Assembly: GCF_013167455.1 (NCBI RefSeq)
Contig: NZ_CP038328.1
Source of the DNA: Escherichia coli O157:H7
Lineage (GTDB): Bacteria > Pseudomonadota > Gammaproteobacteria > Enterobacterales > Enterobacteriaceae
Strand: one strand, 5' to 3'
DNA length: 64,000 nt
Shown: positions 56,201 through 59,200 of the stretch, in pieces
Position numbering within the stretch: position 1 is the first letter of the stretch
Layout of the letters: each line of letters starts with the position of its first letter
Made by a program: the position numbers

Positions 56201-59200
56201 CCGCAGACATCGAGGATCTCACGAACACGCGCGTACCCCAGTAAGGTCGGGTTAAGTTTCACAAAGGTGTTGAGCCCTTTTTCTTCCAGCATGTAGCGGC
56301 AAATGGCTTCGATTTCATGCGGAGGACAGCCGTGCATGGTGGAGAGGGTGACGCCATGCACCATACTGGTGGGGATGCGAGCGGGTAAGGCTTGCAAGCT
56401 TTCGCGTTTTTCCTGCAATCCGTGGCGGGCTAAAAATGCGTCATCCTGGAGTAATTTATTCAGCGTATCGCGATATTGCGCGAATTTCGGATGGTCAGAT
56501 GCGTCCATCATATTGTCGATGAACTGTTGCATTGGCGGTTGCTTAATACCTTCGAGGTTGTAACCGACGCTCATATTAAAGATGAACGATTTACCGGAAT
56601 CAGAAGGTTGGAACATCGCTTCGAGAAGGTGCAGGGCAAACCAGGCTTTGAGGTATTCATCCCAGGCTTTAAGCAGGGTAAATTCGGTAGACCATTCGGT
56701 GTTAAAGCACTCGTCTTCGGCATCAATACAGGGCTTTTCCAGCTCCAGGCGGTCAAGAATTTGGACGGTTTTTAGTTCGATGAAACGTCCGCCAGTCAGC
56801 CAGGAAGTGACAATATTTTGCGCGAGCTGCGTGTGCGGGCCAGCGGCAGGGCCGACGGGAGTGGCACAGGTTTCACCGAAGACGCTAACAGTTTTACCTT
56901 TTACAGGTGAGTAAAACTGTTGCTCGGGAATACCAAAGATTGAGCGTTGTTGTTGGTATTCATCAAATATGCGCGTCAAAAGTTCCTCAAACGGAATGGG
57001 ACGCATAATATCCCCCATAACCCTCTCCTTAGCTTATACAGATATCATTGAGTGACCGGTGTTGAGAAATCCGGTGGTTTAGGGGGATAGAGCAACAATC
57101 GCACCACTCTTGCCAGGTTTGGCGGGAAATATAAAAAAATGTGAGGCGGCTCGAAACTTAAGGGCTTTTTGTGAATGAACTCACAGGTGCTAAATGAGAA
57201 TTAAAATCACTCCTGAAAATTATTATTGCCATCCCATATATCACTTTTTCTCTTTTCTCAAAATCAGTGATTCCTTATCATTATGATAAAGAGTGCTGGA
57301 GGGATTAAATATTTGAACGCAATCGTTTAACTACGTTTTTTAAATTTTAGTATACCTTTTTTGCGCTGTAATAAAGTCGTCCGGAGTATCAATATCTAAA
57401 ATTATTTCTGCATTTTCTACTTCGACGGAATAATGAGCTCCCATAAGGAGTGCCTGACGCATATTGGTGATATTGGGGCGCTTGATTGCCTGCATCAGGC
57501 ATGGTTTTGACACTAAAATCGGATGGCCGGGGATGCCATTATGGAGTGGCAGTATTGCGCCATCATTTCGTAACGACCAGATTTTTCTGAAAATATCGAT
57601 GGTGAGGGTTGGCATGTCACCGTGGGTGAGAAAACAATGTTCTGTTTGCACTGCGGGTACTGCGGCCTTTACTGATGTTAGTAAACCCTGCGCATAATCT
57701 GGGTTGTGGATAATAGTGATATTGCTCTGGTTCGCATAACGTTCGTGCAGTTCATTACCACGATAGCCGGTGACTAAAATAATTCGGCTACAAAACTGCA
57801 ACGCATTTTTGATACTTGTATCAAGAATTGTCCCCTGTTGCCAGGGTAACATCATTTTCCATTGCCCCATTCTTGATGATAATCCGGCAGCGGTAATTAT
57901 ACAGTCGATGGCTGACATAGTGGTTCCATTATTTATAGGGGCTAATAACGCCTGATAATTGCGTTACTTCCTGATGGATTAAGTTGGGGATAATTTATCC
58001 CAGAGAGGTCATAAAGACTCGTGAAAAGTATAGTTGACCCATCGGCATTATTCATTGATTTAGGTGCGCAGAAACGTCCCACTGTGATTTCTGTTGTTGG
58101 TGCTGGGGGGAAAACCAGCTTGCTTTTTTGGCTGGCAGAACTGCTCCAGGCTAGCGGCAGGCGTGTGTTAATCACGACGACAACACATATGTTTATGCCA
58201 ACGTCTCACTGGCCCGTGGTTTTCTGTCGTGATCCCGCCATGCTTCCTCATGCGTCTCTTACATCCCCCATTTCATTTTGTTTTCACAGCTGGAAAGCGA
58301 ACCTGGGAAAAGTGCAGGGATTTACGCCAGAAGCGATTGATGCACTGGTGCAACGACCAGAGTGTGACGTAATTCTCATTGAAGCAGATGGCTCGCGTGC
58401 AATGCCGTTAAAAGCGCCTGATGAGCACGAACCTTGCATACCCAAAAGCAGTTGCTGCGTGATTGCTGTGATGGGAGGACATATTTTGGGCGCGAAAGTG
58501 AGCACGGAAAATGTCCATCGCTGGTCGCAGTTTGCTGATATTACCGGGTTAACACCTGATGCAACCTTGCAACTGAGCGATCTCGTTGCGCTGGTTCGCC
58601 ACCCTCAGGGGGCGTTTAAAAACGTACCGCAAGGTTGTCGGCGAGTCTGGTTCATTAACCGTTTTTCTCAATGTGAGAATGCGATTGCGCAAAGCGAGCT
58701 CCTTCAACCGCTGCAACAACACGACGTAGAGGCAATCTGGCTGGGCGATATACAAGAACATCCTGCAATCGCGCGCAGATTTGTGAATTAGCGGCCCGGG
58801 TATTCCGGGTTACTGAAAGGATATCCATTGAGGTTGGTATGAATATTTTCACAGAGGCTGCAAAACTCGAAGAGCAAAATTGTCCGTTTGCTATGGCGCA
58901 AATTATTGATAGCCGAGGCTCGACTCCCCGCCATTCTGCACAAATGTTAGTGCGCGCCGATGGCTCTATCGTCGGTACAATTGGTGGCGGAATGGTTGAG
59001 CGGAAGGTGATTGAAGAGTCGCTTCAGGCATTGCAGGAACGTAAGCCGCGATTATTCCATGGACGTATGGCTCGTAACGGTGCGGATGCTGTCGGGTCAG
59101 ATTGTGGAGGTGCGATGTCAGTGTTTATCAGCGTCCATGGTATGCGTCCACGTCTGGTGTTGATTGGCGCGGGGCATGTCAACCGGGCGATAGCCCAGAG

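What the first reader, a model, noticed from the sequence alone, without database searches (positions are those of the whole stretch)
57019..57339. Candidate sigma54 promoter and palindromic operator-like sites upstream of ygfK
The 321-bp gap between mocA and ygfK contains, on the minus strand, CTGGCAAGAGTGGTGCG (plus coordinates 57100-57116), matching the sigma54 -24 GG / -12 GC architecture (TGGCAa-N5-gTGC), ~80 nt upstream of the ygfK ATG. Further upstream (57200-57290) lie near-palindromes AATCAgTGATT and TTATCATtATGATAA that could be enhancer or repressor sites. A sigma54-dependent activator is encoded at the far end of this cluster in K-12 (ygeV, outside this window; from memory), which would fit.
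Basis: inference. Interest (0 to 1): 0.45.

Follow-up and report, generated by a model that had tools for sequence, protein, structure and literature searches.

The report
Known sigma54 promoter of ygfK, re-registered

Summary
The quoted sequences are all at the stated coordinates. The real site overlaps it 9 nt downstream: GTGGTGCGATTGTTGCT (57091-57107, minus strand). It is the best sigma54 match in the 64-kb window (14.1 bits), is conserved upstream of ygfK in 74 of 80 species, and equals the published K-12 ChIP-seq site OS31 (Bonocora 2015). The predicted start is 57080, not 57089.

The palindrome TTATCATaATGATAA (57275-57289, -202) is the enhancer. TATCA-N3-TGATA is present in 73 of 77 species at helically phased distances. 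It recurs upstream of the ygfT, ygeW and xdhA sigma54 promoters, and it matches the motif predicted for DioR, the sigma54 activator of the same genes in Clostridia. YgeV is the inferred binder; binding was not tested.

AATCAgTGATT is not conserved, although it overlaps a weak second site. A perfect, conserved CRP core (57170-57185, -97.5) lies between enhancer and promoter, which fits published CRP SELEX and glucose repression.

Verdict: a canonical, essentially known sigma54/activator/CRP promoter. The only new part is assigning the enhancer in E. coli.

The parts
57091..57107 (-). sigma54 promoter GTGGTGCGATTGTTGCT: -24 element TGGTGC (GG at 57104-57105) and -12 element TTGCT (GC at 57092-57093)
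   Evidence: It scores 14.1 bits with a matrix from 134 other ChIP-seq sites, the best hit in the whole window. It is identical to the K-12 ChIP-seq site OS31 (FAT 26), and K-12 is identical to the window from -150 to the ATG. A site of at least 12 bits in this register lies within 200 nt of the ygfK ATG in 74 of 80 species.
57080..57080 (-). predicted transcription start (+1), 62 nt upstream of the ygfK ATG at 57018
   Evidence: Inferred from the -12 C at 57092. It uses the same rule and gives the same distance (62) as Bonocora Table 1. It has not been mapped experimentally.
   Evidence: It scores 7.9 bits, and 80 window positions score as well. Its TGGCA is present only in Escherichia and Citrobacter sp. 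MGH106, and is TGGTA in E. whittamii.
57275..57289 (.). UAS1: perfect palindrome TTATCAT-A-ATGATAA centred at -202, the inferred binding site of the sigma54 activator YgeV (DioR-type motif)
   Evidence: The core pattern is unique in the window. It is present with at most 1 mismatch in 73 of 77 species, at helically phased distances. Related sites lie upstream of the ygfT, ygeW and xdhA sigma54 promoters. It is identical over 17 nt to the predicted DioR site of the C. botulinum ygeW-ygfK operon. A matrix trained only on Clostridial sites finds it.
57256..57268 (.). UAS2: weak second site ACTGATTTTGAGA centred at -182, 20 bp from UAS1, with a conserved right half TGAGA inside TTTTGAGAAA.
   Evidence: TTTTGAGAAA is invariant in 16 enteric species. 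A TGA[TG]A half-site lies 23-25 nt downstream of the UAS1 centre in 63 of 77 loci. In Vibrionaceae a second site sits 19-20 nt downstream of the first. TGAGA/TCTCA half-sites are the C. difficile and C. ljungdahlii DioR variant.
57194..57209 (-). conserved block TGATTTTAATTCTCAT (-129..-114) containing an AATTCTCA half-site; role unknown, possibly an auxiliary activator half-site
   Evidence: It is near-invariant in enteric species. AATTCTCAT with at most 1 mismatch is present in 38 of 77 loci. The assignment is inference only.
57170..57185 (.). CRP site I: perfect core TGTGA-N6-TCACA centred at -97.5
   Evidence: It is the only exact match in the window, against 0.07 expected. The core is kept with at most 1 mismatch at -97.5/-98.5 (up to -110.5 in Morganella) in 35 species, while the N6 spacer varies freely. 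ygfK is listed as a CRP genomic-SELEX target (PMC3105977).
57140..57155 (.). CRP-like site II: TTCGA-N6-TCACA centred at -67.5, followed by a T/A-rich tract
   Evidence: TCACA and TTnGA are invariant in enteric species. Matches with at most 2 mismatches pile up at -67.5/-68.5 in 35 species. Similar elements sit at -67.5/-68.5 before xdhA and ygfT. This assignment is weaker than for site I.
57055..57075 (-). hairpin in the 5' untranslated region (+6..+26), ACCGG-N11-CCGGT
   Evidence: A hairpin at the same place is formed by different sequences in Edwardsiella, Aeromonas, Buttiauxella and Morganella. No Rfam family matches. Its function is unknown.
53920..57018 (-). ygfK, first gene of the ygfK-ssnA-ygfM-xdhD transcription unit that this promoter serves
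   Evidence: ORF and annotation. YgfK is the flavin-dependent reductase that dearomatises 2,8-dioxopurine in reductive urate degradation. All four genes are in the YgeV iModulon.

Best explanation
This is the canonical sigma54-dependent promoter of the ygfK-ssnA-ygfM-xdhD operon, which encodes part of reductive urate/purine degradation.

1. RNA polymerase carrying sigma54 binds as a closed complex to TGGTGC-N5-TTGCT (57091-57107, minus strand). The predicted start is 57080.
2. The complex cannot open DNA by itself.
3. The activator YgeV has PAS, AAA+ sigma54-interaction and C-terminal HTH_8 domains and is encoded about 11 kb away. It binds as dimers to the palindrome TTATCA-N3-TGATAA at -202 and to a weaker site 20 bp downstream at -182.
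4. YgeV oligomerises, reaches the polymerase by DNA looping, and uses ATP hydrolysis to open the promoter.
5. cAMP-CRP, bound at the perfect core at -97.5 and perhaps at a second site at -67.5, bends the intervening DNA. This makes expression glucose-sensitive and fills the place that IHF occupies at many sigma54 promoters.

Shown here or published: the position, quality and conservation of the sigma54 site; in vivo sigma54 occupancy in K-12; conservation, phasing and recurrence of the palindrome; conservation of the CRP core; CRP SELEX for ygfK.

Inferred: that YgeV is the protein on the palindrome; that CRP acts positively and architecturally; the exact start site; the inducing signal.
For: sigma54 site:
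- Matrix scan of the window.
- ChIP-seq site OS31, FAT 26, same 17-mer, EcoCyc 'predicted'. The paper also counts ygfK among the candidate sigma54-transcribed genes of an earlier microarray study that its ChIP-seq peaks confirmed.
- K-12 sequence identical to the window from -150 to the ATG.
- Conserved in 74 of 80 species, 53-130 nt from the ATG.

Enhancer:
- Unique in the window and present in 73 of 77 species.
- Distances fall into about 8 classes that share one helical phase: Rayleigh R = 0.72, p about 4e-4 over 15 distinct distances; R = 0.76, p about 0.01 over 8 merged classes.
- The same motif lies at -199 (ygfT), -234 (ygeW) and -152 (xdhA) from the other sigma54 ChIP sites of the cluster.
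- In Serratia, Morganella and Lonsdalea it is shared with a divergent sigma54 promoter.
- The background rate of the motif is about 0.05 per kb in 852 kb.
- The predicted DioR sites of Clostridia, upstream of ygeW-ygfK-ssnA-ygeY, dpaL, yqeB and xdhABC, have the same consensus, and one is identical over 17 nt.
- A matrix trained only on those Clostridial sites ranks the ygfT, ygeW, xdhA and ygfK sites among the six best hits in the 40-kb E. coli cluster.

Activator:
- YgeV domain architecture.
- ygfK, ssnA, ygfM and xdhD belong to the YgeV iModulon, and ygfT expression drops in a ygeV mutant.

CRP:
-; SELEX; glucose repression of urate degradation in wild-type E. coli.

Negative results that fit the model:
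- No IHF consensus.
- No sigma70-like promoter on the ygfK strand inside the gap.
- No Rfam family.
Against: - No transcription start has been mapped, and sigma54 occupancy does not prove productive transcription, as Bonocora et al. themselves stress.
- YgeV binding to the palindrome has never been shown, and I found no paper giving a YgeV site in E. coli.
- I could not establish orthology of YgeV and DioR by sequence. One search returned only E. coli copies.
- The ygfK palindrome scores lower (12.6 bits) than the Clostridial training sites (17.9-25.2) because its flanks are less A/T-rich.
- No terminator is detected between mocA and ygfK, so read-through transcription may contribute.
- CRP is known to inhibit some sigma54 promoters, such as glnAp2 (from memory), so the sign of its effect here is uncertain.
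- The published ChIP peak centre lies 18 bp downstream of the motif centre. That favours the downstream register but is imprecise.
Confidence: 0.8

Rival explanations
1. One reading: -24 element TGGCA and -12 element GTGC at 57100-57116, start near 57089.
For: GG-N10-GC spacing is correct and TGGCA is a perfect -24 core. With a matrix built only from the 41 intergenic ChIP sites, it scores 10.4 bits against 12.1 for the downstream register, a smaller gap.
Against: It scores 7.9 bits with the full matrix, the 1st percentile of real sites, and 80 window positions score as well. The loose pattern is at chance level. TGGCA is absent at that place in every species outside Escherichia and one Citrobacter, whereas the downstream register is conserved throughout. 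MEME in the ChIP-seq study chose the downstream motif, and the peak centre lies further downstream still.
Confidence: 0.04
2. Two overlapping sigma54 sites 9 bp apart both bind holoenzyme in Escherichia. The upstream one would be a lineage-specific addition that raises occupancy or gives a second start.
For: Both have correct spacing. ChIP occupancy is fairly high for a 10-bit site (FAT 26). TGGCA or TGGTA is kept within Escherichia.
Against: The two sites overlap by 8 bp and cannot be occupied together. The upstream one has a poor -12 region (GGTGCG). E. whittamii and E. coli E69 already differ in it. Nothing requires it.
Confidence: 0.07
3. The palindrome TTATCATaATGATAA is an operator for a different protein, such as a repressor, Fur or a purine regulator, rather than the enhancer of the sigma54 activator.
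For: Binding has never been tested. The sequence is A/T-rich and loosely Fur-like. It lies far upstream (-202), close to the end of mocA.
Against: The best Fur-consensus match in the gap is 13/19, lies elsewhere, and is reached in 12% of shuffles. Conservation follows a 5-3-5 pattern with a free centre. The motif accompanies sigma54 promoters at phased distances, including four promoters of the E. coli cluster and divergent promoter pairs. The same motif was derived independently for the sigma54 activator of the orthologous Clostridial regulon.
Confidence: 0.1
4. sigma54 binding here is largely unproductive, and ygfK is mainly transcribed by read-through from mocA or from an unrecognised sigma70 promoter.
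For: No terminator is predicted between mocA and ygfK. Bonocora et al. caution that binding sites are not necessarily promoters. The YgeV iModulon is almost always silent.
Against: Promoter, enhancer and CRP site are conserved together with helical phasing over a wide phylogenetic range. ygfK is co-regulated with other sigma54-driven operons of the cluster. No sigma70-like site lies on the ygfK strand in the gap. Bonocora et al. count ygfK among the candidate sigma54-transcribed genes of an earlier microarray study that their ChIP-seq peaks confirmed.
Confidence: 0.08

Closest known systems
sigma54 binding site OS31 upstream of ygfK in E. coli K-12 (Bonocora et al. 2015, PMC4591121; EcoCyc predicted promoter)
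   Same: It is the same 17-mer, GTGGTGCGATTGTTGCT, with the same distance (62 nt) from the predicted start to the ATG. The K-12 and window sequences are identical over the promoter.
   Different: Nothing differs for the promoter itself. The published work did not describe the enhancer, the CRP site or the conservation given here.
DioR regulon of Clostridia (Nie et al. 2019, PMC6615313): a sigma54 activator with predicted sites ATTTATCA-N3-TGATAAAT upstream of ygeW-ygfK-ssnA-ygeY, dpaL, yqeB and xdhABC
   Same: It shares the target genes, the sigma54 dependence, the palindrome (one site is identical over 17 nt), the TCTCA/TGAGA variant half-sites, tandem sites about 18-20 bp apart, and placement 100-250 bp upstream of the promoter.
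   Different: It belongs to a different phylum. The E. coli operons are arranged differently, with ygfK heading its own operon. The E. coli promoter also has CRP sites. Orthology of YgeV and DioR was not verified by sequence here. Both motifs are computational predictions.
glnAp2 with NtrC, the textbook sigma54 promoter (established knowledge, from memory)
   Same: It also has a -24/-12 promoter, two adjacent activator sites on one face of the helix upstream, activation by looping and ATP hydrolysis, and modulation by CRP.
   Different: The activator and palindrome differ (TGCACC-N5-GGTGCA). The sites are closer (-140 and -108). CRP is inhibitory there. The signal is nitrogen, not purine or urate.
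prpBCDE with PrpR, a sigma54 promoter under catabolite control (established knowledge, from memory)
   Same: It is a catabolic operon driven by sigma54 and a dedicated activator, with CRP dependence.
   Different: IHF is used there as the bending protein. Here no IHF consensus is found, and a CRP core occupies that position.

Membership tests
sigma54 (-24/-12) promoter | GG and GC doublets exactly 10 nt apart within TGGCAC-N5-TTGCW-like elements, scoring like validated sites | tested here: met
57091-57107 scores 14.1 bits, near the median (46th percentile) of 134 ChIP-seq sites, and is the top hit in the window.
sigma54 (-24/-12) promoter | occupied by sigma54 holoenzyme in vivo | not testable with these tools
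   Published ChIP-seq peak OS31, FAT 26, in K-12. The K-12 sequence is identical to the window.
sigma54 (-24/-12) promoter | position and sequence conserved upstream of the orthologous gene | tested here: met
   74 of 80 species have a site of at least 12 bits within 200 nt of the ygfK ATG, in the same register.
sigma54 (-24/-12) promoter | transcription starts about 12 nt downstream of the GC and depends on rpoN and an activator ATPase | not testable with these tools
   No start-site data were found. Support is indirect: ygfK was among the candidate sigma54-transcribed genes of an earlier microarray study, as cited, and it belongs to the YgeV iModulon.
enhancer (UAS) of a sigma54 activator, DioR/YgeV type | palindrome matching the family motif TTATCA-N3-TGATAA (variant TTCTCA-N3-TGAGAA) | tested here: met
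   Perfect core at 57275-57289. A matrix trained on Clostridial sites only gives it 12.6 bits, 4th best in the window and 6th in the 40-kb cluster, where the other top hits lie before ygfT, ygeW and xdhA.
enhancer (UAS) of a sigma54 activator, DioR/YgeV type | located about 100-250 bp upstream of a sigma54 promoter, on a fixed helical face, usually in two or more copies | tested here: met
   Centre at -202 with a second weak site at -182. Distances in 73 species are phased (R = 0.72, p about 4e-4). A second half-site lies at +23..+25 in 63 of 77 loci.
enhancer (UAS) of a sigma54 activator, DioR/YgeV type | recurs at the other promoters of the same regulon | tested here: met
   ygfT at -199, ygeW at -234 and xdhA at -152, each with 1 mismatch.
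enhancer (UAS) of a sigma54 activator, DioR/YgeV type | bound by the activator protein (YgeV) | not testable with these tools
   No published footprint, EMSA or ChIP was found. YgeV has the required HTH_8 and AAA+ domains.
enhancer (UAS) of a sigma54 activator, DioR/YgeV type | the activator is an orthologue of DioR | tested here: inconclusive
   The homologue search returned only E. coli copies, and no Clostridial sequence was available. The inference rests on shared targets and motif.
CRP binding site | TGTGA-N6-TCACA core | tested here: met
   Perfect core at 57170-57185, the only one in the window against 0.07 expected.
CRP binding site | half-sites conserved while the spacer varies | tested here: met
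   At most 1 mismatch at -97.5/-98.5 (up to -110.5 in Morganella) in 35 species, with many different N6 spacers.
CRP binding site | binds cAMP-CRP and affects expression | not testable with these tools
   ygfK is in the CRP genomic-SELEX target list, and glucose represses urate degradation. There is no footprint at this site.
Fur box | at least about 15/19 match to GATAATGATAATCATTATC at the palindrome | tested here: not met
   The best match in the gap is 13/19, lies elsewhere, and is reached in 12% of shuffles.
IHF site | WATCAANNNNTTR between enhancer and promoter | tested here: not met
   No match on either strand of the gap, even with one mismatch allowed.

The most novel reading that the evidence does not exclude
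The whole regulatory module may be an ancient unit shared, or transferred as a block, between Clostridia and gamma-proteobacteria. The module is a sigma54 promoter, a TTATCA-N3-TGATAA enhancer and a YgeV/DioR activator controlling reductive urate degradation. On this reading the undescribed DNA site of E. coli YgeV (IsrR) is this palindrome. That would define the YgeV regulon by sequence (ygfK, ygfT, ygeW, xdhA and perhaps yqeB) and make its inducer directly testable. In enterobacteria CRP at -97.5 would act as the architectural co-activator in place of IHF.
Probability: 0.55. Interest if true: 0.4.

Novelty: already known. Interest (0 to 1): 0.2.

Why it matters
The ygfK operon encodes steps of the recently worked-out anaerobic urate degradation pathway of gut bacteria, which bears on gout and engineered uricolytic probiotics. 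The correct promoter register, the probable YgeV enhancer and the CRP site tell anyone rewiring or assaying this operon which bases to mutate. They also give a sequence definition of the still putative YgeV regulon. The promoter itself adds nothing new, because its sigma54 occupancy is published.

Tried and rejected
1. A homologue search with YgeV, meant to reach the Clostridial DioR, returned only near-identical E. coli copies, so orthology stays untested.
2. A tblastn search with YgeV against the 80 ygfK loci found a neighbour only in L078. The activator gene is usually more than 4 kb away, so co-localisation could not be used.
3. The Fur-box reading of the palindrome is rejected: 13/19, at another position, at chance level.
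4. No IHF consensus is found in the gap.
5. Rfam finds nothing in 56900-57450, so there is no known riboswitch or leader.
6. The sigma70 and terminator scan finds no sigma70-like promoter on the ygfK strand inside the gap and no terminator after mocA.
7. The Reg-Seq preprint lists ygfK among its YgeV-iModulon genes but reports nothing on its promoter.
8. The IsrR (YgeV) paper gives no DNA site.
9. The Clostridial-matrix hit at 11217-11235 is intragenic and was treated as chance.
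Full report
LOCUS AND OBSERVATION

The window matches E. coli O157:H7 chromosomes at 100% identity over this region. The 321-bp gap 57019-57339 lies between mocA (57340..57918) and ygfK (53920..57018), both on the minus strand.
- CTGGCAAGAGTGGTGCG, the reverse complement of 57100-57116.
- AATCAGTGATT at 57262-57272.
- TTATCATTATGATAA at 57275-57289.

ygeV is outside the window, about 11 kb beyond mocA, in an identical O157 genome. It is annotated as a sigma-54 interaction-domain protein. Pfam finds PAS, Sigma54_activat, AAA lid and HTH_8 domains in it.

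THE PROMOTER IS ALREADY KNOWN

Bonocora et al. 2015 (PMC4591121, Table 1, site OS31) report a sigma54 ChIP-seq peak upstream of ygfK in K-12. Its fold-above-threshold score is 26, the motif is GTGGTGCGATTGTTGCT, and the predicted start is 62 nt from the ATG. EcoCyc flags the promoter as predicted. The paper also counts ygfK among the candidate sigma54-transcribed genes of an earlier microarray study that its ChIP-seq peaks confirmed. K-12 is identical to the window from -150 to the ATG. The seven differences further upstream all fall outside the conserved boxes.

The published motif lies at 57091-57107 on the minus strand.

I built a weight matrix from the 134 other published ChIP-seq sites and scanned both strands of the window:
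- The published register scores 14.1 bits. It is the best of 127,968 positions and sits near the median of real sites.
Eighty positions in the window do as well.

I then fetched 80 loci with ygfK orthologues from Escherichia, Citrobacter, Klebsiella, Edwardsiella, Serratia, Morganella, Aeromonas, Photobacterium, Vibrio, Shewanella and others:
- In 74 of them the best sigma54 match (at least 12 bits) within 200 nt of the ATG is in the published register, (C/T)TGG(T/C)(G/C)(C/T)GA(T/A)TGTTGCT.
It is TGGTA in E. whittamii.

The predicted start is therefore 57080, not 57089.

THE ENHANCER

An alignment of 16 enteric upstream regions shows sharp footprints. Its properties are:
- The core TATCA-N3-TGATA occurs once in the 64-kb window against 0.04 expected.
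- It is present with at most one mismatch between -240 and -140 in 73 of 77 species.
- Its distance from the predicted start falls into a few classes: -202/-203, -181/-182, -214, -194, -160 and a few others. All share one helical phase (Rayleigh R = 0.72, p about 4e-4 over 15 distinct distances; R = 0.76, p about 0.01 over 8 merged classes).
- The same motif with one mismatch lies at -199, -234 and -152 from the sigma54 ChIP sites of ygfT, ygeW and xdhA.
- In Serratia, Morganella and Lonsdalea it sits between ygfK and a divergent sigma54 promoter.
- A second, weaker site lies 20 bp downstream, centred at -182. Its right half, TGAGA within the invariant TTTTGAGAAA, is found 23-25 nt from the first centre in 63 of 77 loci.

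It is not itself conserved outside Escherichia. A 5-1-5 palindrome in a gap of this size is close to chance.

LINK TO A KNOWN MOTIF

Nie et al. 2019 (PMC6615313) reconstructed sigma54 regulons in Clostridia. [quoted passage not shown] Their supplementary table gives sites such as ATTTATCAAAGTGATAAGT. For the C. botulinum ygeW-ygfK operon it gives ATTTATCATAATGATAAGG, which is identical over 17 nt to the E. coli site (cTTTATCATAATGATAAGGa). C. difficile and C. ljungdahlii use AATTCTCA-N3-TGAGAATT. Those are exactly the TCTCA/TGAGA variants seen in E. coli.

I built a matrix from 21 Clostridial sites, leaving out the identical one, and scanned the 40.5-kb E. coli cluster. Five of its six best hits were:
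- ygfT upstream, 22.0 bits.
- ygeW upstream, 18.4 bits.
- A site inside yqeC, 17.1 bits.
- xdhA upstream, 15.0 bits.
- ygfK upstream, 12.6 bits.

The remaining one (15.4 bits, fourth) lies outside the promoter regions, beyond xdhA.

I found no paper giving a DNA site for E. coli YgeV, also called IsrR. Assigning this palindrome to YgeV is an inference. It rests on shared targets, the shared motif and YgeV's domain architecture. The YgeV iModulon contains ygfK, ssnA, ygfM and xdhD.

THE CRP SITE

Between enhancer and promoter lies a perfect CRP core, TGTGA-N6-TCACA, at 57170-57185, centred at -97.5. It is the only exact match in the window, against 0.07 expected. The core is kept with at most one mismatch, while the spacer varies freely, at -97.5/-98.5 (up to -110.5 in Morganella) in 35 species. 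A second CRP-like element, TTCGA-N6-TCACA, centred at -67.5, is also conserved.

Three published or negative results fit this reading:
- Shimada et al. 2011 list ygfK, ygeV<>ygeW and ygfT<>ygfU among CRP genomic-SELEX targets.
- Urate degradation by wild-type E. coli is glucose-repressed.
- No IHF consensus is present in the gap, so CRP plausibly supplies the DNA bend.

MECHANISM

1. sigma54 holoenzyme sits in a closed complex at -24/-12.
2. YgeV dimers bind at -202 and -182, oligomerise, contact the polymerase by looping over CRP-bent DNA, and open the promoter by ATP hydrolysis.
3. The product is ygfK-ssnA-ygfM-xdhD mRNA. YgfK is the flavin-dependent reductase that dearomatises 2,8-dioxopurine, and XdhD reduces urate to it.

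Shown here or published: the position, quality, conservation and in vivo occupancy of the sigma54 site; the conservation, phasing and recurrence of the palindrome; the CRP core and its SELEX support. Inferred: the identity of the protein on the palindrome, the sign and architectural role of CRP, the start site, and the inducer.

RIVALS AND WHAT WAS RULED OUT

- The Fur reading of the palindrome fails: 13/19, at another position, at chance level.
- No Rfam family matches.
- No sigma70-like promoter lies on the ygfK strand in the gap, and there is no terminator after mocA, so some read-through cannot be excluded.

VERDICT

This is a canonical sigma54/activator/CRP promoter that is already in the literature and in EcoCyc. 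The modest new content is the sequence-level assignment of the YgeV/DioR-type enhancer and the CRP site in E. coli, with their conservation and phasing. Interest is low, at 0.2.

Noticed in passing
window 57315-57332 (ygfK strand AGTTAAACGATTGCGTTC, centre about -243): A PurR-operator-like sequence lies just after the mocA stop. Its reverse complement ACGCAATCGTTTAACT matches the PurR consensus ACGCAAACGTTTGCGT at 12/16 (consensus from memory). It is invariant in Escherichia, several Citrobacter species and Klebsiella indica. It might link purine repression to this catabolic operon.
   Followed up: no
window 57055-57075 (minus strand, +6..+26 of the predicted mRNA): A hairpin, ACCGG-N11-CCGGT, sits at the 5' end of the ygfK leader. 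Orthologous leaders in Edwardsiella, Aeromonas, Buttiauxella and Morganella form a hairpin at the same place from different sequences. That points to a conserved RNA structure, perhaps a stabilising 5' stem-loop. No Rfam family matches.
   Followed up: partly
window 58422-58438 (+) and 58663-58681, inside yqeC (58021..58791 +): The published intragenic sigma54 site IS34 (TGAGCACGAACCTTGCA, oriented toward yqeB) is present. A strong DioR-type palindrome, TTTTCTCAATGTGAGAATG (17.1 bits), lies about 220 nt downstream of its predicted start and 167 nt before the yqeB ATG. This may be an enhancer acting from downstream on a yqeB promoter. DioR controls yqeB in Clostridia.
   Followed up: partly
window 41904-41922, uacT-ygfT intergenic region: This is the best DioR-type site of the window, TTTTCTCATATTGATATTT (22.0 bits). 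It is centred at -199 from the predicted start of the weak ygfT sigma54 site (TATGCCCGTTTATTGCA, Bonocora OS32), almost the same distance as at ygfK.
   Followed up: partly
L022, L026, L036, L041, L045, L081, L062, L077 (upstream of ygfK): In Serratia silvae, Pluralibacter, Morganella, Lonsdalea and Symbiopectobacterium, a second sigma54 promoter of 13-18 bits points away from ygfK. It shares the same palindrome as a bidirectional enhancer.
   Followed up: partly
L001 21122-23205 and 7168-7656 (O157:H7 strain PV15-279): In this otherwise identical O157 genome, yqeC is split by an IS1203 insertion and ygfS carries an internal stop. In the window, yqeC is an intact 256-aa ORF.
   Followed up: no
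window 18845-18861 (+) and 13302-13318 (+): These are two further strong sigma54 matrix hits, CTGGCACAGGCATTGCG (13.8 bits) and CTGGCGAGCAAGTTGCA (13.4 bits), elsewhere in the window. I did not check whether they are intragenic.
   Followed up: no
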